A stretch of DNA of 40,097 nucleotides, taken from Minisyncoccota bacterium (GTDB lineage: Bacteria; Patescibacteriota; Minisyncoccia; 2-02-FULL-40-12; GWA2-44-9). Every line of letters begins with the position of its first letter. Within the stretch, counting starts at the first letter, position 1. Location of the stretch: NCBI GenBank assembly GCA_018062285.1, contig JAGOSO010000006.1, positions 1 through 40,097 on the forward strand. The letters are read 5' to 3'. Below are positions 5,297 through 39,023 of the stretch, in pieces. A model generated the notes under the pieces. That model worked only from the letters and a program-made list of their open reading frames with translations. It searched no databases and had not been told where the DNA came from. The position numbers were made by a program, and so were the translations under genes.

Positions 5297-5854
5297 GTGT
5301 ATAAGAAGATTAGAAAGGTTGGGATTGCTCTTTTGGCCGTTAGTTTATTGGTCGGGAACACCGATATTGGCACGGCCTTTATCGTAATGTTCTTGCCTAA
5401 AGACATTTCTTTGTGGGCCCTTCTAGTCATTATCATTGTTTCGGCCAACATCCAGGCAGCTATCTGCTATAAGCTTGGCCACGACCTTGTTTCGGTGTTG
5501 GGTAGGCTGTATGGGTCTGTTTTCGAGATCCCTTATTCCGTCAGGTTCAACTGGTTGTCTCATGGTTTCAAGCGGGCTATTCTTTCGACCCTCTTTTTGT
5601 TCCATGACTGGGAAGCAACCAAGCACAGTTTTGAAAGAGTGGTCAGGTCTATTTCTGGAAGCAAGAGGTTGATGTTCGGGGCATTTTTTACCTGGCTTCT
5701 CGCTCCAGGGAGTCGCTCAATAACAGCTATCGTTCTTGGTATGTCTGAAAGATTTGGATTGTTACTGGTCCTCACCACGCTGCATGTTGTTCTCGGTTTT
5801 ATTTTCTGGGGACTTGTTTACGAAGTTGCCTCTGGTGTGACCAGCCTTTTTTAA
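5297..5854 (+). CDS. Hypothetical multi-pass membrane protein, possibly highly diverged DedA/VTT-like
   Basis: 185 aa with several hydrophobic segments; GTG start 4 nt after AGGAGG; followed by a terminator. Confidence 0.7.
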   Translation: MYKKIRKVGIALLAVSLLVGNTDIGTAFIVMFLPKDISLWALLVIIIVSANIQAAICYKLGHDLVSVLGRLYGSVFEIPYSVRFNWLSHGFKRAILSTLFLFHDWEATKHSFERVVRSISGSKRLMFGAFFTWLLAPGSRSITAIVLGMSERFGLLLVLTTLHVVLGFIFWGLVYEVASGVTSLF

Positions 5855-5860
5855 AACTAA

Positions 5861-5891
5861 GCCCCCGCATTTGCGGGGGCCGTTCTTTTTT
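5861..5891. terminator. Convergent terminator between ORF 5297 and thrS
   Basis: gcccccgca-tt-tgcgggggc with T-rich flanks on both strands. Confidence 0.8.
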
Positions 5892-5897
5892 CTGGGA

Positions 5898-7637
5898 TTA
5901 CTTTTTTAAATCTATTTCTTCTTTCAAGAGAGCGAGAGCAATATCGATCGCCATGACACCCTTGTCTCCATCTTTTCGTTTGCGGACAGCGACAGATTGA
6001 GCTTCTAGTTCTTTGTCTCCGATCACAAACAAATACGGAATCTTTTGCATTTCGGCGTTGCGGATCTTTTTGCCGAGAGTTTCGTTTTGGTCGTGGAGTT
6101 CAGCACGGATGCCGGCATGTTTTAATTTGTGAACTACAGATTCAGCAAAAGCTTTCTGGTTATCTGAGATGTTAATAACCGCAACCTGAACAGGGGCGAG
6201 CCATAATGGGAAAGCACCAGCGTAGTGTTCGATTAGGACACCCATAAATCTTTCGATTGATCCAAGTATGGCGACGTGAAGAACGGCTGGTGCGTGTTCT
6301 TGGCCATCCTCGCCAACGTAGCGCATGTTGAAGTTCTCTGGTTGGTTAAAATCAAGTTGAACGGTTGTGAGCTGCCACTTTCTGCCAATTGAATCTTTGA
6401 CCATGATGTCTATCTTTGGGCCATAGAATGCGGCTTCGCCTTCTTCGACAACATAAGGACGACCCCACTTCTTTACTGATTCAATTAAGATTTCTTCGGA
6501 CTTGCTCCAAAGAGAATCATCTCCGAAGTATTTTTCTGGGGTCTTGGGATCTCTGATTGATATCTGAACTGAATAATCAGTAAACATGAAAGTCTTATAG
6601 ACTTTGTCTAACAATCCAAGGATCATTTCAATTTCACTTTGAATTTGGTCGTGTCTTACAAAATGGTGGGTATCATCTTGGGTAAGAGCTTTAACTCTTA
6701 CAAGGCCACTAAGTTCGCCACTCTTTTCGTTTCGGTATACGGTGGTATTCTCAGCGATACGGTAGGGCAAATCACGATAGCTGTGTGGTTCAGAATTGTA
6801 TATGGCAAAGTGGTGAGGGCAGTTCATGGCTTTCATGACGAACTGGTCACCATCCTGATCAGTCATTATTGGCATCATCGCATCGTACTTACCTAAGTGG
6901 CCACTCTTTTTATAAAGCTCAGTACTGGCGATGTGGGGAATATGAACAAACTTGTAGCCGAGGTTTTCTTTTTCTTGTCTCATGAAATTACCTAATTCAT
7001 TAAAGACAGTTTCTCCTTTGGGTAAGAAAAGAGGGAGACCTGGGCCAACGAGTGGGCTAAAAGCGAATAGACCAAGCTCTTTGCCTAATTTTTTGTGATC
7101 TCTTTTTTCAGCCTCTTCCCGTTGGGTTAAATATTCTTTTAATTTATCTTTGCTCTCAAAAGCCAAGCCATAGATACGGGTGAGTTGGGGATTCTTTTCA
7201 CTGCCACGCCAGTAAGCGCCAGCCAAACGAGAAAGCTTAAATGAATTTCCTTGGATGGTGCTTGGGTCTTCAACGTGGCCACCGCGACAAAGGTCGGTAA
7301 AAGATCCTGAGGTGTATAGGGTTATTTTCTCACCAGCTTTTTCTAGGTCAGCGATAAGTTCTTCTTTGAACTGGTTGCCATTAAACATGGCGCGAGCTTC
7401 ATCAGCTGAAACTTCTTTGCCCTCAAAACTTTTCCAAGCCTTTAAGAGTTCACGCATCTTATCTTCTATGACAGGTAAATCAGTATCAGAAAGTTTTCCC
7501 TTAACATCAATGTCGTAATAGAAGCCATCTTCGATGGCAGGACCAATGGCTAATTTTGAGCCAGGATACAAATCCAAAACAGCTGCTCCTAGCAAGTGGG
7601 CCAACGAGTGCCTAACGTGTTCGATTGAGTTTTTCAT
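5898..7637 (-). CDS. thrS: Threonyl-tRNA synthetase (short form without N-terminal TGS domain)
   Basis: Editing motifs HSLAHLL and DLCRGGH, RDHKKLG, MNCPHH, AFYGPKID, GSIERF, and anticodon-binding domain. Confidence 0.97.
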   Translation of the reverse strand: MKNSIEHVRHSLAHLLGAAVLDLYPGSKLAIGPAIEDGFYYDIDVKGKLSDTDLPVIEDKMRELLKAWKSFEGKEVSADEARAMFNGNQFKEELIADLEKAGEKITLYTSGSFTDLCRGGHVEDPSTIQGNSFKLSRLAGAYWRGSEKNPQLTRIYGLAFESKDKLKEYLTQREEAEKRDHKKLGKELGLFAFSPLVGPGLPLFLPKGETVFNELGNFMRQEKENLGYKFVHIPHIASTELYKKSGHLGKYDAMMPIMTDQDGDQFVMKAMNCPHHFAIYNSEPHSYRDLPYRIAENTTVYRNEKSGELSGLVRVKALTQDDTHHFVRHDQIQSEIEMILGLLDKVYKTFMFTDYSVQISIRDPKTPEKYFGDDSLWSKSEEILIESVKKWGRPYVVEEGEAAFYGPKIDIMVKDSIGRKWQLTTVQLDFNQPENFNMRYVGEDGQEHAPAVLHVAILGSIERFMGVLIEHYAGAFPLWLAPVQVAVINISDNQKAFAESVVHKLKHAGIRAELHDQNETLGKKIRNAEMQKIPYLFVIGDKELEAQSVAVRKRKDGDKGVMAIDIALALLKEEIDLKK

Positions 7638-7672
7638 ATGTTTTTATTTGATTAAGGATAGCAGTATTAAGA

Positions 7673-7715
7673 GTAAAAATAAAGACGCCCTGTCTCGTCT
7701 TTGAGAGGGCGTCTT
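7673..7715 (-). terminator. Attenuator terminator in the thrS leader
   Basis: Minus strand AAGACGCCCT (7715-7706) pairs with AGGGCGTCTT (7691-7682) as a 10-bp stem, followed by TATTTTT. Confidence 0.85.
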
Positions 7716-7733
7716 GGAGCACAATCTTTATGT

Positions 7734-7805
7734 TTATGCGCCAACAGACCCTCTCAAAGAAGGGGTGGTTGTGCATGTAGTTGAGAATAAACGAGAAATA
7801 GTCAT
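7734..7805 (-). CDS. Thr-rich leader peptide MTISRLFSTTCTTTPSLRGSVGA (23 aa)
   Basis: Read by hand: ATG 7805 to TAA 7736-7734. Six Thr codons, five of them in ACT ACA TGC ACA ACC ACC. Overlaps the antiterminator strand. Confidence 0.85.
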   Translation of the reverse strand: MTISRLFSTTCTTTPSLRGSVGA

Positions 7806-7814
7806 CGTGTAGTT

Positions 7815-7843
7815 ATTCTACTAAAAACAGAGACTGCTTACAA
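7815..7843 (-). promoter_or_regulatory. Promoter of the thrS leader
   Basis: TTGTAA (7843-7838), 17 nt, TAGAAT (7820-7815), then 9 nt to the leader ATG. Confidence 0.7.
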
Positions 7844-7851
7844 ATGTTTAA

Positions 7852-10800
7852 CTAAGCGAGGGTTGCGACGTGGCGAGCATCGTCACAGAGGAGTTTTGCG
7901 AGGCCGTCTTTGTCGTTAACTTTCCCAGCAACAACGATGATTGCATTTTCTTTAAATATCTCGGGATACTTTTCAAGAATGGTAGGGAAGACAACGACTT
8001 CAATCTTTGAAGTTAGGTCTTCGATCCACGCAAAGAGCATTGGTTTACCGGTCTTTGTGATTATCTTTTGAACTTTAGTTACAATTCCACCGATCTTTAT
8101 TGGGCCAGACATCTTAGGACGAACTTCTTTGATGGTGATGGTTTTTTCCAACTTCATGTTCTTGGCGTATTCATGGAGTGGGTGGGCAGAAACAAACAGA
8201 CCAAGCAATTCTTTTTCCCACATTAGTTTTTCGGAATTTTTTGCGGCCGTTGCAGAGATTAATTTTAATGAAGGCAAAACACTCATGTCGTTGCCAAACA
8301 AACTGGCCTGGCTCATGCCCTGACTCTTTTGGATATCGTGGGCATAAGTGAGAAGATTCTCGATGTTCATCAAAAGGAGGTTTCTCTCGCCAAATGAATC
8401 AAGGGCCCCACATTTAATTAAGGCTTCCATTGATTTCTTGTTGAGGTCTTTGTTTTTGACACGAGTAACAAAGTTTTCGATATCGGTGAATGGACCATTA
8501 TCTTTGCGTTCGGCAATGATAGCATTGGCGATGTTTTCGCCTAAGTTTTTGATAGTTAGTAAACCGAAACGAATTTGGTCTTTTCCTGTCGGGCTATTTT
8601 TGCCTTTGATGACAGTAAAATCTTTGTAAGAACTATTTATTTCTGGTGGTAAAACAGGAATCTTCATCTTCTGACATTCTTCGATAACTTGAGCCACGCG
8701 TTCAGTGTCACCAGATTCAGCAGTGAGAATGGCGCACATATATTCAGCTGAGTAGTGAGCCTTCATGTAGGCTGTTTGGTAAGCGACGCGGCCATAGCAG
8801 GCAGCATGAGCTTTGTTGAAACCGTAACCTTGGAATGGTTCGAATAAATTCCAAATCTCTTCAGCTTGTTGAGCGGTCATGCCTGAGTGGCTCTGGCAAC
8901 CTTCTACGAAAATAACATGTTGCTTGGCCATTTCTGCTGGAATTTTTTTACCAACAGCTTTGCGGAATTTATCGACTGATTCCCAGTTGTAGCCGGCGAG
9001 TTCCATGGCCGTGAACAATAGGTCGTCTTGGTATACGAGAATGCCGTAGGACTTAGCTAAGAATTTTTCTGCTTTCGGATGGAAGTAAGTGATGCGACTG
9101 CGACCCTGTTTGCGGGCAATGTATTCAGGGATGTTGTTGATTGGTCCTGGGCGGTACAAGGCAACCATAGCGTTGATATCATAGATGGTAGTTGGTTTCA
9201 GCTCCATTAGGTATTTAGTCATGCCCGCTGAACCGCCGAGCTGGAAGACGCCTTCAGTTCCACCAGAAGCTAACATTGCAAATGTTTTCTTGTCATCAAA
9301 AGGAATTTTTTCAATATCAATATCGATGTTTTGGTGGATTTTAACCAAGCGCACAGCATTTTCGAGAATGGCCAAGTTTCTGATTCCAAGAACGTCGAGT
9401 TTTAGCAAGCCAACGCCGTCTTCGCCCACAGTGTACATGTCGTACTGGGTGATTAAGTGTGTGCCTTCTTTTGGATCAAACTGAATCGGTACGTACTCTA
9501 CTAATGGTTTTGGAGAAATAACGACACCTGCAGCGTGAACAGAAACATGGCGAACGGTGCCTTCTAATTTTTTAGCGATATCGATAATGTGGTGAGCCTC
9601 AGAATCTTGTTCGTAAGCCTTCTTTAATTCCGGCTCAAGTTCCATGGCTCGATCAATCGTCATCGGGAAACCCTGTGAGCCCATTGGGATTAACTTAGCC
9701 AAGCGATCACCAGTTTCATATGATTTCCCAAGAGCTCGAGCTACGTCACGAACAGAGCCACGGGCCAACATTGTTCCAAAAGTACCGATTTGAGCAACTT
9801 TATCTTCTCCATATTTCTTTTTGGCATACTCAACAATTTCTTGGCGGCGGTTGTCGGCAAAGTCCATGTCGATATCGGGAGCAGATGGACGGAAAGGATT
9901 TAAGAATCTTTCAAACGGGAGAAGAAATTCAATCGGGTCAACACTGGTAATGCGTGATAGATAAGCAACAAAAGAACCAGCGGCCGAACCTCTAACGGTT
10001 GTGTAGATTTGATTTTGATGGGCGAAGTTGAGCAAGTCAGCAACTACCAAAAAGTAGGGTGAGTAACCCTTGTTTTTAATAATCTCCAATTCATATTTGC
10101 GGCGTTCTTCGGCCTCGGCATTGTTTTCCATTCCGCGTTCAATCATGCCTTTTTTGGTTAGGTCATCGAGCATTTCATCTGCTGTCTTGCCTGGTTCGAG
10201 AGGGAAGTCTGGGAAAATAAATTTGCCGAGAGTCAAATCAACATTGCAACGATCGGCAACAAGTTGAGTGTTGGTGACAGCTTCTGGAATATCTTTAAAT
10301 TTTTCAACCGCTTCTTCTGTTGAGAGGAAGTGATATTCTCCTTGGCCAGAAAACAAAGCAGGGTCACTAACGTCGGTGTGGGTAGAGATAGCAACCAGTG
10401 TCTTGTGGGCTTCGGCATCTTCCTTTCTTAAATAATGGGAGTCTTGGGTTGCGACAAGGGGGATATTAAATTTCTTAGAAAATCCGACAATGGTATCTTT
10501 CCAGTCCTCATAAAATTCCACGTCTGGGTGGTTCATGATTTCCAGATAGTAATTGTCCTTTCCAAAAATTGATTGGTACTCAAGAACAATCTCTTCAGCC
10601 TTTTCTTTGTCACCGTGTTGGATGGCTCTGCCTAGTTCACTCCCTGGGCACCCAGAAAGACAGATAACCCCTTCAGCATGTTTGCGAAGTAGTTCTTTGT
10701 CGACACGTGGTTTGTAGTAATAACCCTCAGTGTGGGCGATCGTGGTGAGTTTGATGAGGTTCTGGTAACCGGTATTGTTCTCAGCAAGCAAAGTTAGGTG

Positions 10801-11112
10801 ATAGCGCTTGTTGTCGATCTGGGCTTCTTTTTGAAGATGGCTTCGATTGGCGACATAAGCCTCAACTCCAATAATTGGTTTGATCCCATTTTTTTTGCAC
10901 TTCGTATAAAAATCAATTGCGCCGTACATGACGCCGTGATCAGTTAATCCGATAGCAGTTTGGCCATGTTCTTTGGCCAACTTTACCATGGCATCTACTT
11001 GCGACATTCCGTCGAGAAGAGAGTAGTGGGAATGTGTGTGGAGGTGGGCGAATTGGGGTCCCGTTCTTTCTTGCTGATTCAAACTATCGGTTGGATTGGT
11101 GATGGGATCCAT
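7852..11112 (-). CDS. dnaE: DNA polymerase III alpha subunit
   Basis: PHP domain (HLHTHSHYSLLDG, TDHG), RGSAAGS, PDIDMDF, GFNKAHA, OB fold. Start 11112 preferred; 11133 possible. No intein. Confidence 0.96.
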   Translation of the reverse strand: MDPITNPTDSLNQQERTGPQFAHLHTHSHYSLLDGMSQVDAMVKLAKEHGQTAIGLTDHGVMYGAIDFYTKCKKNGIKPIIGVEAYVANRSHLQKEAQIDNKRYHLTLLAENNTGYQNLIKLTTIAHTEGYYYKPRVDKELLRKHAEGVICLSGCPGSELGRAIQHGDKEKAEEIVLEYQSIFGKDNYYLEIMNHPDVEFYEDWKDTIVGFSKKFNIPLVATQDSHYLRKEDAEAHKTLVAISTHTDVSDPALFSGQGEYHFLSTEEAVEKFKDIPEAVTNTQLVADRCNVDLTLGKFIFPDFPLEPGKTADEMLDDLTKKGMIERGMENNAEAEERRKYELEIIKNKGYSPYFLVVADLLNFAHQNQIYTTVRGSAAGSFVAYLSRITSVDPIEFLLPFERFLNPFRPSAPDIDMDFADNRRQEIVEYAKKKYGEDKVAQIGTFGTMLARGSVRDVARALGKSYETGDRLAKLIPMGSQGFPMTIDRAMELEPELKKAYEQDSEAHHIIDIAKKLEGTVRHVSVHAAGVVISPKPLVEYVPIQFDPKEGTHLITQYDMYTVGEDGVGLLKLDVLGIRNLAILENAVRLVKIHQNIDIDIEKIPFDDKKTFAMLASGGTEGVFQLGGSAGMTKYLMELKPTTIYDINAMVALYRPGPINNIPEYIARKQGRSRITYFHPKAEKFLAKSYGILVYQDDLLFTAMELAGYNWESVDKFRKAVGKKIPAEMAKQHVIFVEGCQSHSGMTAQQAEEIWNLFEPFQGYGFNKAHAACYGRVAYQTAYMKAHYSAEYMCAILTAESGDTERVAQVIEECQKMKIPVLPPEINSSYKDFTVIKGKNSPTGKDQIRFGLLTIKNLGENIANAIIAERKDNGPFTDIENFVTRVKNKDLNKKSMEALIKCGALDSFGERNLLLMNIENLLTYAHDIQKSQGMSQASLFGNDMSVLPSLKLISATAAKNSEKLMWEKELLGLFVSAHPLHEYAKNMKLEKTITIKEVRPKMSGPIKIGGIVTKVQKIITKTGKPMLFAWIEDLTSKIEVVVFPTILEKYPEIFKENAIIVVAGKVNDKDGLAKLLCDDARHVATLA

Positions 11113-11220
11113 AGAGGGTCGAACATGATTCATGAAATCAATTCATGCATATTCGAAATTAGTACTTACGTATTGTACCAGTCGCTCAAGGAGACGCAAT
11201 TGTGGATAGCTTAGTCCGTA

Positions 11221-15430: not shown

Positions 15431-15478
15431 CACCATAAACAAAAAGTCCTCTGGTCAGAGGACTTTTTGTTTATGGTG
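15431..15478. terminator. Convergent terminator between ORF 14538 and tRNA-Leu
   Basis: 22-nt perfect inverted repeat caccataaacaaaaagtcctct-ggtc-agaggactttttgtttatggtg. Confidence 0.85.
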
Positions 15479-15557
15479 CCCGAGGTGGGACTTGAACCCA
15501 CAAGCCTTGCGGCACACGATTTTGAGTCGTGCGTGTATGCCATTCCACCACTCGGGC
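15474..15557 (-). tRNA. tRNA-Leu(CAA)
   Basis: GCCCGAG acceptor stem, anticodon loop CT-CAA-AA, long variable arm, GGTTCAAGTCC, encoded CCA. Confidence 0.95.
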
Positions 15558-27382: not shown

Positions 27383-27420
27383 TGATTGGTAAAACTCATA
27401 TTTTTGTGTTATAATGGTTG

Positions 27421-27801
27421 GAGTATGTAGACAATCGCTTCTGTGCTTTCGGGTGCAGGGGAGGAAAGTCCGGGCACTATCTTGTCTCGCAAGAGACAGA
27501 TAAAACGGTAGTGGGTAATCCCCATCTACAGTAATGTAAGAGGTGCGAACAGAGACGTCTTGGTTCGAAAGGACCAGAGAGCTAAACCCAGATCATTGAT
27601 TTATCAAAGATCATAGCTTAGTTCCAATCGGGGATACAAGATTGGAGGTGAAACGGCCAAATCCTTACTGGAGTGCAAGATCAAATTCCGATTTATCGGA
27701 ATAAAAGTAGATCGCTTGAGTCTGGCAGTAATGCCAAGACCAGATAAATGGTTGTCCGGTCGTCGCAAGACGACTATACAGAACCCGGCTTATCGCATGC
27801 T
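27421..27801 (+). ncRNA. rnpB: RNase P RNA
   Basis: GAGGAAAGTCCGGGC (27461-27475) and ACAGAACCCGGCTTA form P4; P1, P2, P5 and P7 pairings can be traced; TGtTATAAT lies upstream. Confidence 0.95.
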
Positions 27802-27836
27802 AAATCAAACTCCCGCTTCGGCGGGAGTTTGATTTA
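27801..27836. terminator. Terminator after rnpB
   Basis: Perfect 16-bp stem with TTCG loop. Confidence 0.88.
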
Positions 27837-38829: not shown

Positions 38830-38903
38830 GCGGAATTCGTACAGTGGTAATACGCGACCTTCCCAAGGTCGAGACACGGGTCCGATTCCCGTATTCCGCT
38901 CCA
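38830..38903 (+). tRNA. tRNA-Gly(CCC)
   Basis: GCGGAAT/ATTCCGC acceptor, loop TT-CCC-AA, U73, CCA; T-loop TCCGATT. Confidence 0.9.
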
Positions 38904-38947: not shown

Positions 38948-39023
38948 GCCACCTTAGCTCAGCTAGTAGAGCAACACTTTCGTAAAGTGGAGGTCCCCAG
39001 TGCAAATCTGGGAGGTGGCTCCA
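38948..39023 (+). tRNA. tRNA-Thr(CGT)
   Basis: GCCACCT/AGGTGGC acceptor, loop TT-CGT-AA, CCA; T-loop TGCAAAT. Confidence 0.88.

What the first reader, a model, noticed from the sequence alone, without database searches (positions are those of the whole stretch)
7673..7843. Complete Thr-sensing ribosome-mediated transcription attenuator controlling thrS
All parts can be read on the minus strand: promoter TTGTAA-17-TAGAAT; a near-leaderless 23-aa peptide with TTCTTT (ACT ACA TGC ACA ACC ACC, 7781-7764); segment 2 TCTTTGAGAGGG(TCT) (7760-7746), which can pair back with the Thr-codon region (1:2) or forms 12 perfect bp with CCCTCTCAAAGA in the terminator 5' arm (2:3 antiterminator); and a 10-bp terminator with U-tract (3:4), ending about 35 nt before thrS. 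This is the classic trp/thr/pheM logic applied to a synthetase. E. coli thrS uses translational autorepression and Firmicutes use T-boxes. Regulatory RNAs in CPR are barely characterised and I know of no such element described there. In a presumed amino-acid-auxotrophic epibiont it would tune ThrRS to host-supplied Thr.
Basis: partly seen in the sequence, partly recalled or inferred. Interest (0 to 1): 0.9.

Follow-up and report, generated by a model that had tools for sequence, protein, structure and literature searches.

The report
Threonine-sensing leader-peptide attenuator before thrS
A short threonine-rich reading frame and two mutually exclusive RNA hairpins in front of the threonyl-tRNA synthetase gene of a Parcubacteria (CPR) genome most likely form a classical ribosome-mediated attenuator, a long-known mechanism that I did not find reported for this group.

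Summary
There is a promoter-like TTGTAA-17-TAGAAT. A 23-codon uORF (7805-7734) has 5 Thr in 6 codons. A 27-position antiterminator helix includes 12 perfect pairs. A 10+3 bp terminator with a U-tract ends 37 nt before thrS.

Chance is unlikely. Only 2 of 20,000 shuffles of the spacer give such a Thr run, and the fold z-score is -4.5. Folding with a ribosome footprint imposed gives the expected switch. A stall at four of the five clustered Thr codons gives the antiterminator. A ribosome at the stop codon gives the terminator.

The closest relatives (67-79% ThrRS identity) lack the leader, so no covariation test is possible. Support comes from analogues. Five Microgenomates-type thrS loci have the same promoter, near-leaderless Thr-run uORF and four-segment layout. 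Thr-run uORFs upstream of thrS number 13 in 161 loci, against 0.8 expected.

Three caveats apply. The antiterminator is far stronger than the terminator, so the default state is read-through. The 1:2 pairing is weak. A weakened copy of the relatives' thrS promoter overlaps the terminator.

Leader-peptide attenuators of synthetase genes are already known (pheST) or predicted (Streptomyces thrS, trpS, leuS). This is a new member of a known kind, of moderate interest.

The parts
7852..11133 (-). dnaE (DNA polymerase III alpha), the upstream gene on the same strand
   Evidence: Pfam hits to PHP, DNA_pol3_alpha, finger, HHH_6 and OB domains
7815..7843 (-). Promoter-like site: TTGTAA (7843-7838), 17-nt spacer, TAGAAT (7820-7815). 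The -10 box lies 9 nt before the uORF ATG.
   Evidence: The match is not significant alone. The same geometry (-10 box a few nt before the ATG) is seen at several bona fide genes of this nearly SD-less genome and at the analogous uORFs in L041, L047 and L063.
7734..7805 (-). Leader ORF of 23 codons plus stop, encoding MTISRLFSTTCTTTPSLRGSVGA
   Evidence: Six of 23 residues are Thr, against 4.4% Thr in the window's genes.
7764..7781 (-). Regulatory codon block ACT ACA TGC ACA ACC ACC (codons 9-14, 5 Thr of 6). It overlaps segment 1 (about 7774-7761).
   Evidence: 2 of 20,000 shuffles. Weak 1:2 pairing with 7755-7740, -11.2 kcal/mol.
7734..7760 (-). Segment 2, the antiterminator 5' arm. It covers uORF codons 16-23 and the stop codon.
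   Evidence: Pairs with 7724-7698. There are 12 perfect bp (7760-7749 with 7709-7698) and the helix extends to 27 positions with 3 mismatches, -34.5 kcal/mol.
7698..7724 (-). Segment 3, the antiterminator 3' arm. It contains the whole terminator 5' arm (7715-7703).
   Evidence: The two structures are mutually exclusive.
7675..7715 (-). Intrinsic terminator: AAGACGCCCUCUC / GAGACAGGGCGUCUU (10 bp + bulge + 3 bp) followed by UUUAUUUUU
   Evidence: -19.3 kcal/mol. A sub-register of the stem was flagged by the terminator scan. The 3' half is homologous to the dnaE terminator region of L171.
7655..7683 (-). Possible relic or weak thrS-proximal promoter: TTTATT-17-TATCCT, overlapping the U-tract
   Evidence: Aligns with the conserved TTGATT-16-TATTCT/TACGCT block directly upstream of thrS in L171, L002 and L001. 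Local alignment scores are 40 and 36.5 against nulls of 19 +/- 3 and 20 +/- 3.
5898..7637 (-). thrS, threonyl-tRNA synthetase of 579 aa. It is the regulated gene and has no N-terminal TGS domain.
   Evidence: Pfam hits to tRNA_SAD, tRNA-synt_2b and HGTP_anticodon. Closest homologues are Paceibacteria/Patescibacteria ThrRS.

Best explanation
This is a ribosome-mediated (leader-peptide) transcription attenuator that couples thrS transcription to the supply of Thr-tRNA(Thr).

Proposed steps:
1. Transcription starts a few nt before the uORF ATG, from TTGTAA-17-TAGAAT. It may also enter from dnaE.
2. The 23-codon uORF is translated as a near-leaderless message, as appears common for genes in this genome.
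3. If charged tRNA-Thr is scarce, the ribosome stalls at Thr codons 9-13. Segment 2 (7760-7734) stays free and forms the very stable helix with segment 3 (7724-7698). That helix sequesters the terminator 5' arm, so RNA polymerase reads into thrS.
4. If Thr-tRNA is plentiful, the ribosome runs over segment 2 to the stop codon in the helix apex. Segment 3 is then left to pair with segment 4, and transcription ends at the U-tract (7683-7675).

Because 2:3 is much stronger than 3:4, an untranslated leader reads through. The element acts as a translation-dependent terminator rather than a trp-like default-off switch.

Shown here: the sequence parts, the alternative structures and their energies, the footprint-dependent switch in silico, and the existence of analogous elements at thrS in other CPR genomes.

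Inferred, not shown: promoter use, uORF translation, transcription-translation coupling, and any response to threonine.

Likely origin (inference): the element was built on the ancestral dnaE terminator and thrS promoter block by adding about 150 nt upstream.
For: Anatomy and coordinates are confirmed.

Structure:
- The leader is far more structured than shuffles, z = -4.5.
- Energies are 1:2 = -11.2, 2:3 = -34.5 and 3:4 = -19.3 kcal/mol.
- With a 28-nt footprint imposed, A-site stalls at Thr codons 9, 10, 12 and 13 give the antiterminator (11 of 13 terminator-arm bases paired to segment 2). A ribosome at codon 14 or at the stop codon gives the full terminator.

Chance:
- A Thr run of 5 in 6 codons appears in 2 of 20,000 shuffles of the spacer.
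- It is unique among 843 small ORFs in the window.

Genome context:
- Most genes lack a Shine-Dalgarno sequence, and several have a -10 box a few nt (about 6-9) upstream of the ATG, so the uORF start context matches genes of this genome.
- The promoter scan found no site of at least 9/12 between the terminator and thrS.

Analogues:
- L041, L047 and L063 have TTGACA/TTGACT/TTGATT, a 16-17 nt spacer, TAGAAT/TAGAGT/TATAGT, then 6-9 nt to the ATG. The uORFs have 15-16 codons with Thr at codons 10-13. The 1:2, 2:3 and 3:4 helices are balanced, and a U-tract follows.
- L045 and L051 are similar.
- Across 161 thrS loci there are 13 Thr-run uORFs, against 0.8 +/- 0.8 in shuffles and 0 on the reverse strand. 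Ala, Gly, Pro and Val runs are not enriched.
- Other CPR relatives regulate thrS with T-box-like terminator/antiterminator leaders, which have the same input-output logic.
Against: - No homologous leader was found except in an identical copy from another sample (L164). Relatives at 79, 78, 77, 73, 71 and 67% ThrRS identity lack it. There is therefore no covariation or conservation support for this particular element.
- The 1:2 pairing is weak and 2:3 is much stronger than 3:4. Termination depends on tight ribosome-polymerase coupling, which is unproven in CPR.
- A stall at the last Thr codon (14) is predicted to favour the terminator.
- The promoter match is no better than chance on its own.
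- A degenerate copy of the relatives' thrS promoter (TTTATT-17-TATCCT, 7683-7655) sits downstream of the hairpin and could drive thrS independently.
- There is no expression data of any kind.
Confidence: 0.65

Rival explanations
1. This is an ordinary gene boundary. The hairpin and U-tract are simply the dnaE terminator, and thrS is transcribed from the proximal promoter TTTATT-17-TATCCT that overlaps it. The upstream 150 nt (uORF and long helix) would be a lineage-specific insertion or inverted duplication with no regulatory role.
For: The terminator 3' half and the following 45 nt align significantly with L171 and L002. In those loci a dnaE terminator (L171) and a TTGATT-16-TATTCT promoter lie directly upstream of thrS. 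Close relatives manage without any leader.
Against: - The proximal promoter has lost the -35 G and matches only 7 of 12 positions. It lies 17 nt from the ATG rather than the 9-12 nt seen in relatives.
- This reading does not explain a Thr run of 5 in 6 codons exactly upstream of thrS (2 of 20,000 shuffles).
- It does not explain a 27-position helix that sequesters the terminator arm and would defeat a plain dnaE terminator.
- It does not explain the recurrence of the same layout at thrS in other CPR genomes.
- No other copy of the segment exists in the window or in 171 loci, so a repeat or mobile-element origin is unsupported.
Confidence: 0.2
2. This is a tRNA- or protein-sensing leader instead of a ribosome-sensing one. 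One option is a degenerate T-box in which uncharged tRNA-Thr stabilises the long helix. Another is a ThrRS-binding operator like that of E. coli thrS.
For: Relatives carry T-box-like thrS leaders with a GGRTGGAACC motif, a UGGA bulge and a terminator. The window's tRNA-Thr has U73, which would match UGGA. The leader has a terminator/antiterminator pair as T-boxes do.
Against: - Rfam T-box gives no match in 7550-7950 even at E <= 10, while it scores 26-28 bits on relatives' leaders.
- The window leader has no GGRTGGNACC motif.
- The long helix has only 1x1 mismatches and no 7-nt bulge.
- By eye, the hairpin loops show no anticodon-like UGU, GGU or CGU, and no stable stem is predicted in the AU-rich 37 nt before the thrS ATG.
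Confidence: 0.07
3. The short transcript is the product. It would be a small RNA or a 23-aa peptide gene with its own promoter and terminator, unrelated to thrS control.
For: A promoter-like site, an ORF and a terminator define a self-contained unit of about 130 nt. Attenuator-derived sRNAs acting in trans are documented elsewhere (PMC6614838).
Against: There is no conservation of the peptide or RNA in any relative. The Thr-codon bias and its position before thrS point to cis control. This reading would not exclude attenuation.
Confidence: 0.05

Closest known systems
E. coli pheM-pheST attenuator (Rfam RF01859 Phe_leader)
   Same: A leader peptide rich in the cognate amino acid, with a terminator/antiterminator pair, controls an aminoacyl-tRNA synthetase operon. 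It is the only Rfam leader family that gave even a weak full-length match here (17.7 bits, E = 1.9).
   Different: There is no sequence-family membership (gathering score 55). The codons are Thr, not Phe. The uORF is near-leaderless rather than SD-driven. The antiterminator here is far stronger than the terminator.
E. coli thrL-thrABC attenuator (Rfam RF00506 Thr_leader) and the trp attenuator
   Same: Clustered regulatory Thr codons sit in a short leader ORF. The logic is the four-segment 1:2 / 2:3 / 3:4 scheme, with the stop codon positioned so that a terminating ribosome masks segment 2.
   Different: It controls the synthetase, not the biosynthetic operon, and has no Ile codons. There is no Rfam match at E <= 10. 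The 1:2 helix is weak, so the predicted default is read-through rather than termination.
Streptomyces leader peptides upstream of synthetase genes: thrL-thrS and alaL-alaS in S. lividans (PMC8079986); trpS and leuS attenuators (PMC1262725)
   Same: A leaderless leader-peptide ORF lies upstream of thrS, and classical attenuators are predicted for aaRS genes.
   Different: The S. lividans thrL has only two Thr and no clear U-rich terminator. The window element has 5 Thr in 6 codons and a canonical intrinsic terminator. The phylum is unrelated and there is no sequence similarity.
Microgenomates-type thrS leaders found here (L041, L045, L047, L051, L063)
   Same: A promoter -10 box lies 4-9 nt before the uORF ATG. 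The Thr run starts at codon 9-10 in four of the five and pairs with a G-rich segment 2. A CCCUC-type segment 3 and a terminator with U-tract follow, upstream of a TGS-less ThrRS.
   Different: Their uORFs have 14-16 codons and stop 2-3 codons after the run. Segment 2 lies after the stop codon, and the helices are balanced at -10 to -17 kcal/mol. They are not alignable with the window leader beyond motifs that the Thr codons themselves impose, so homology is undemonstrated.
T-box leaders of thrS (Firmicutes; T-box-like leaders in CPR relatives L007, L016, L019, L020, L048 and others)
   Same: Same gene, same position and same output: antitermination when tRNA-Thr charging is low.
   Different: The sensor is uncharged tRNA, not a stalled ribosome. 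The window lacks the T-box motif and bulge.
E. coli thrS translational operator (ThrRS autorepression)
   Same: A cis-acting 5' element that controls thrS.
   Different: It acts on translation initiation through tRNA-like anticodon arms next to the ribosome-binding site. No such arms were seen here, and the element ends in a terminator 37 nt before the start codon.

Membership tests
Classical leader-peptide (ribosome-mediated) transcription attenuator | A short translatable ORF in the 5' leader | tested here: met
   A 23-codon ATG ORF at 7805-7734. Its -10-like box lies 9 nt upstream, a geometry shared with several real genes in this SD-poor genome. Translation itself is not shown.
Classical leader-peptide (ribosome-mediated) transcription attenuator | A cluster of codons for the amino acid relevant to the regulated gene | tested here: met
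   Five Thr in six codons (7781-7764) upstream of thrS. This occurs in 2 of 20,000 shuffles and is unique among 843 small ORFs in the window.
Classical leader-peptide (ribosome-mediated) transcription attenuator | An intrinsic terminator between the leader ORF and the structural gene | tested here: met
   A 10+3 bp GC-rich stem at -19.3 kcal/mol followed by UUUAUUUUU, spanning 7715-7675 and ending 37 nt before the thrS ATG.
Classical leader-peptide (ribosome-mediated) transcription attenuator | An antiterminator that is mutually exclusive with the terminator | tested here: met
   7760-7734 pairs with 7724-7698 at -34.5 kcal/mol and covers the whole terminator 5' arm.
Classical leader-peptide (ribosome-mediated) transcription attenuator | Geometry: a ribosome stalled at the regulatory codons allows the antiterminator, and a ribosome at the stop codon prevents it | tested here: met
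   Constrained folds with a 28-nt footprint give the antiterminator for A-site codons 9, 10, 12 and 13. They give the terminator for codon 14 and for the stop codon. This is a thermodynamic proxy only.
Classical leader-peptide (ribosome-mediated) transcription attenuator | A 1:2 (pause/protector) helix that makes termination the default without translation | tested here: not met
   The 1:2 helix is only -11.2 kcal/mol against -34.5 for 2:3. The unconstrained minimum-energy fold is the antiterminator. The element works like the class but with a default-on state.
Classical leader-peptide (ribosome-mediated) transcription attenuator | Conservation or covariation of the uORF and stems in related genomes | tested here: not met
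   Relatives at 67-79% ThrRS identity lack the leader. The only other copy is identical. Analogous elements exist in other CPR lineages.
Classical leader-peptide (ribosome-mediated) transcription attenuator | Read-through responds to charged-tRNA supply | not testable with these tools
   This needs transcript mapping or reporter and in vitro assays.
Rfam leader families (Thr_leader RF00506, Phe_leader RF01859) | Covariance-model score at or above the gathering threshold | tested here: not met
   There is no gathering-level hit in the window. Phe_leader scores 17.7 bits against a threshold of 55 (E = 1.9), and Thr_leader is absent at E <= 10.
T-box riboswitch (RF00230) | A T-box sequence with a UGGN bulge in the antiterminator and a specifier codon in Stem I | tested here: not met
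   There is no RF00230 match at E <= 10 in 7550-7950 and no GGRTGGNACC motif in the leader. Relatives' leaders do match, at 26-28 bits.
E. coli-type thrS translational operator | tRNA-Thr anticodon-arm mimics adjacent to the thrS ribosome-binding site | tested here: inconclusive
   No stem is predicted in the 37 nt before the ATG, and by eye the hairpin loops lack UGU, GGU or CGU. There was no formal motif search, and binding is not testable here.

The most novel reading that the evidence does not exclude
CPR bacteria have repeatedly swapped the sensor in front of thrS. The options seen are no leader, short T-box-like leaders and near-leaderless Thr leader-peptide attenuators. The window would show one such birth caught in the act: about 150 nt carrying a new promoter, a Thr uORF and an anti-terminator arm were added onto the ancestral dnaE terminator and thrS promoter. 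That would turn a plain terminator into a translation-dependent, default-on attenuator that reports Thr-tRNA charging in an organism thought to depend on externally supplied amino acids.
Probability: 0.35. Interest if true: 0.6.

Novelty: new member of a known kind. Interest (0 to 1): 0.45.

Why it matters
If it is real, it shows that ultra-small CPR genomes with few regulators still use transcription-translation coupling to sense amino-acid supply. That implies coupled, near-leaderless translation in these uncultured organisms.

Together with the Microgenomates-type leaders and the T-box-like leaders found here, thrS becomes a convenient locus for studying how cis-regulatory sensors are exchanged between lineages. 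It also shows how an ordinary terminator can be recruited into a switch.

The mechanism class itself has been textbook knowledge since the 1970s. It has been found or predicted for synthetase genes before, so the finding extends range rather than principle.

Tried and rejected
1. The metagenome scan with the ThrRS protein returned only distant relatives, mostly 44-51% identical (one at 62%), and no close homologues of the leader.
2. Nine contig look-ups covered the nearest ThrRS clusters. One locus had no DNA on file and was recovered through a cluster member. None but the identical L164 carries the leader.
3. blastn-short of the 214-nt spacer against the window and all 171 loci found no second copy. 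A repeat or mobile-element origin is therefore unsupported.
4. Rfam at gathering and at E <= 10 gave nothing usable for the window leader.
5. The MAFFT alignment of the five Microgenomates-type leaders was out of register in the stems. I therefore did not build a covariance model or count covariation. Three-way complementarity is reported from individual folds only.
6. I checked whether the window holds other synthetase genes to test for cognate-codon uORFs. Among the largest ORFs scanned there is none; they include gatB, topA, lepA, murJ, pgk and glycosyltransferases.
7. Literature searches for CPR/Patescibacteria T-boxes, riboswitches or leaderless translation returned no papers.
8. The pheM/pheST search returned mostly irrelevant hits.

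Full report
**What is there.** All coordinates below are on the minus strand. dnaE (7852-11133) is followed by a 214-nt spacer and then thrS (5898-7637). thrS encodes a 579-aa class II synthetase with SAD, core and anticodon-binding domains and no TGS domain.
- TTGTAA (7843-7838), a 17-nt spacer, then TAGAAT (7820-7815).
- Nine nt later, an ATG ORF of 23 codons (7805-7734) encoding MTISRLFSTTCTTTPSLRGSVGA.
- The Thr block ACT ACA TGC ACA ACC ACC at 7781-7764.
- TCTTTGAGAGGG at 7760-7749, with its perfect complement CCCTCTCAAAGA at 7709-7698.
- A terminator with arms at 7715-7703 and 7696-7682 (10 bp, a bulge, 3 bp) and the U-tract TTTATTTTT at 7683-7675, 37 nt before the thrS ATG.

The 12-bp pairing is the base of a longer helix of 27 positions (7760-7734 with 7724-7698). 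The uORF stop codon sits near its apex.

**Is it more than chance?**
- The leader RNA folds at -42.4 kcal/mol against -26.5 +/- 3.6 for dinucleotide shuffles (z = -4.5).
- A uORF with at least 5 Thr in 6 codons arises in 2 of 20,000 shuffles of the spacer.
- It is the only such ORF among 843 small ORFs on both strands of the window. Thr makes up 4.4% of codons in the window's genes.
- The promoter match (9 of 12) is not significant alone, with 10 found against 11.4 expected.
- The promoter geometry is informative, though. This genome has almost no Shine-Dalgarno sequences, and several of its genes carry a -10 box a few nt (about 6-9) before the start codon. The uORF therefore has the start context of a real first gene.

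**Energetics and geometry.** The three helices are 1:2 = -11.2, 2:3 = -34.5 and 3:4 = -19.3 kcal/mol. I refolded the leader with a 28-nt ribosome footprint forced single-stranded.
- With no ribosome, or with the A site on Thr codons 9, 10, 12 or 13, the terminator 5' arm pairs with segment 2. This is the antiterminator state.
- With the A site on codon 14 or on the stop codon, the full terminator forms.

This is the behaviour required of a leader-peptide attenuator, with one difference from trp. Because 2:3 dominates and 1:2 is weak, an untranslated leader is predicted to read through. Termination requires a ribosome travelling over segment 2 close behind the polymerase.

**Relatives.** The ThrRS is of Paceibacteria/Patescibacteria type.
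- An identical leader occurs on a contig from another sample (L164). It adds no information.
- The nearest distinct relatives lack the leader. L001 (79%) and L003 (77%) have dnaE-thrS gaps of 42 and 21 nt. L002 (78%) has 47 nt after a divergent gene. L167 (73%) has an inserted gene followed by a promoter. L165 (71%) has a plain 148-nt AT-rich spacer. L171 (67%) has a dnaE terminator and a promoter in 64 nt.
I regard it instead as showing that the element is lineage-specific.
- The window's terminator 3' arm, U-tract and the next 45 nt align significantly with L171 and L002. Local alignment scores are 40 and 36.5 against nulls of 19 +/- 3 and 20 +/- 3.
- In those relatives the aligned block is TTGATT-16-TATTCT, the thrS promoter, preceded in L171 by the dnaE terminator.
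- The window keeps TATCCT (7660-7655) but has TTTATT in place of TTGATT. The attenuator therefore seems to have been built on an older terminator/promoter junction. A weakened proximal promoter may still give thrS some attenuator-independent transcription.
- No second copy of the spacer exists in the window or in the fetched loci.

**Analogues.** In 161 thrS loci from genome and metagenome collections I scanned 450 nt upstream for small ORFs with at least 4 of 6 identical residues.
- Thr gave 13 hits, against 0.8 +/- 0.8 in dinucleotide shuffles (maximum 3 in 100) and 0 on the reverse strand. Ala, Gly, Pro and Val gave 2, 0, 0 and 0.
- Three CPR (Microgenomates-type) loci repeat the window's design in compact form:
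  - L041: TTGACA-17-TAGAAT, 6 nt, ATG, peptide MSLLNFVIVTTTTCPR.
  - L063: TTGACT-17-TAGAGT, 8 nt, peptide MINAKILNCTTTTPK.
  - L047: TTGATT-16-TATAGT, 9 nt, peptide MIILNNNINTTTTHA.
- In each, the Thr codons form segment 1, a G-rich segment 2 pairs either with them or with segment 3, and a terminator with U-tract follows. Helix energies are -10 to -17 kcal/mol.
- L045 and L051 are further members.
- In these loci segment 2 changes together with segments 1 and 3. L041 has GCGUGG with CCCACG and CCACGC, while the others have GGAGGG with CCUCC. This is what a working attenuator predicts. I could not turn it into a formal covariation count because MAFFT misaligned the stems.
- Other Thr-run leaders occur before TGS-containing ThrRS genes. 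MTPRTTT... is shared by L120, L132, L154 and L159. MLTKNFATTRTTTTRF and MLSKNFAALTTTTTLR occur in L098 and L117. None matches an Rfam family at the gathering threshold.

**Other regulation of the same gene in CPR.**
- Fourteen of 92 loci with a TGS-less ThrRS carry a GGRTGGAACC motif followed by a terminator.
- In L016, L019 and L020 this leader gives sub-threshold T-box matches of 26-28 bits against a gathering score of 93.
- A short upstream hairpin presents ACC followed by A.
- The UGGA bulge fits the U73 discriminator of the window's own tRNA-Thr.
- The window leader has none of these features.
- Related lineages thus use no leader, a T-box-like leader or a Thr leader peptide at the same gene. 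This interchange of sensors was described for hisS by Naville and Gautheret (PMC2965389).

**Mechanism and rivals.** I commit to the leader-peptide attenuator at about 0.65.
- The main rival, at about 0.2, is that the hairpin is only the dnaE terminator and thrS uses the proximal promoter. It leaves three things unexplained: the Thr run, the terminator-sequestering helix and the analogues.
- A tRNA- or ThrRS-sensing leader is disfavoured (about 0.07) by the absence of T-box or anticodon-mimic features.
- A free-standing sRNA or peptide gene is disfavoured (about 0.05) by the lack of conservation.

**Comparison with known systems.**
- The logic is that of trpL, thrL and pheM.
- Attenuation of synthetase genes by leader peptides is established for E. 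coli pheST (general knowledge; Rfam RF01859 exists).
- It is predicted for Streptomyces trpS and leuS (PMC1262725).
- It is predicted for S. lividans alaS, trpS, leuS and thrS. The S. lividans thrL is leaderless, as proposed here (PMC8079986).
- I found no paper on such elements, T-boxes or leaderless translation in CPR.
- The window element is not a sequence member of any Rfam leader family.
- The verdict is a new member of a known kind. It has a default-on balance and a visible evolutionary origin as its distinctive points.

**Scores.** Interest is 0.45. This is a clean, testable candidate in a poorly studied group, but the principle is old and this instance is a singleton without expression data.

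Noticed in passing
L016:1268-1428, L019:1327-1430, L020:1256-1426; also L007, L048, L021, L049, L050, L053, L055, L061, L072, L083, L097 (upstream of thrS): T-box-like thrS leaders occur in CPR genomes. They have a GGRTGGAACC motif (UGGA bulge) with a terminator, preceded by a short hairpin whose loop shows ACC (ACU in L050) followed by A, for example CUACCAA. They score only 26-28 bits against Rfam T-box (gathering score 93), so standard annotation misses them. The short Stem I recalls the truncated actinobacterial ileS T-boxes (from memory, not tested).
   Followed up: partly
L041:1299-1437, L063:1227-1362, L047:703-835, L051:563-659, L045:1343-1460: A compact family of near-leaderless Thr leader-peptide attenuators lies upstream of TGS-less thrS in Microgenomates-type genomes. 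The uORFs have 14-16 codons, with the Thr run at codons 10-13 in four of the five. The 1:2, 2:3 and 3:4 helices are balanced, and segments 1, 2 and 3 appear to change in concert.
   Followed up: partly
L120, L132, L154, L159 (about 310-360 nt upstream of the RHS motif); L098, L117; L146: Thr-run uORFs with downstream terminators also precede TGS-containing (proteobacteria-like) thrS genes. Four loci share GAGCGAGAAAGGCA..CCGGTT ATG ACA CCG CGA ACT ACC (MTPRTTT...). L098 and L117 share MLxKNFA..TTTT.., and in those two and L146 a tRNA gene lies just upstream. No Rfam family covers them at the gathering threshold.
   Followed up: partly
window, all gene starts (e.g. 5236, 13364, 15643, 34208, 35552): Almost no gene in the window has a Shine-Dalgarno sequence. 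Several have a TATAAT-like box a few nt (about 6-9) before the start codon. Internal genes have A/U-rich upstream regions. This suggests leaderless or SD-independent initiation as the norm.
   Followed up: partly
window 7775-7773; L041:1373-1375; L063:1288-1290: A single Cys codon (TGC) sits inside or next to the Thr run in three of the CPR leaders (TTCTTT, TTTTC, CTTTT), often with Pro nearby. It could reflect pairing constraints or be coincidence.
   Followed up: no
L072: about 100-360 nt upstream of thrS: A T-box-like element with its terminator is followed by direct repeats (CGTCATCCTGGAGTCC...) and then a Thr-run uORF (MSYDLGSTIYHLTTTTMPRTKAGLARRA). Two sensor types may lie in tandem before one thrS.
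   Followed up: no
L009: about 100-300 nt upstream of thrS: A GC-richer, apparently structured stretch of about 200 nt lies in a 405-nt spacer before the thrS whose N-terminus looks most like the window's. It has no Rfam match at the gathering threshold and no Thr uORF or T-box motif.
   Followed up: no
window 27419-27808 (+): RNase P RNA (bacterial class A) scores 107.3 bits, only just above the gathering score of 100. The window's three tRNA genes are Leu-CAA (15474-15557, minus strand), Gly-CCC (38830-38903) and Thr-CGU (38948-39023); the CCA end is visibly encoded in tRNA-Thr.
   Followed up: no
window 5860-5881: A GC-rich hairpin (GGCCCCCGCAAATGCGGGGGCT) with T-runs on both strands lies between the convergent thrS and the 185-aa ORF at 5297-5854. 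It is probably a bidirectional terminator.
   Followed up: no
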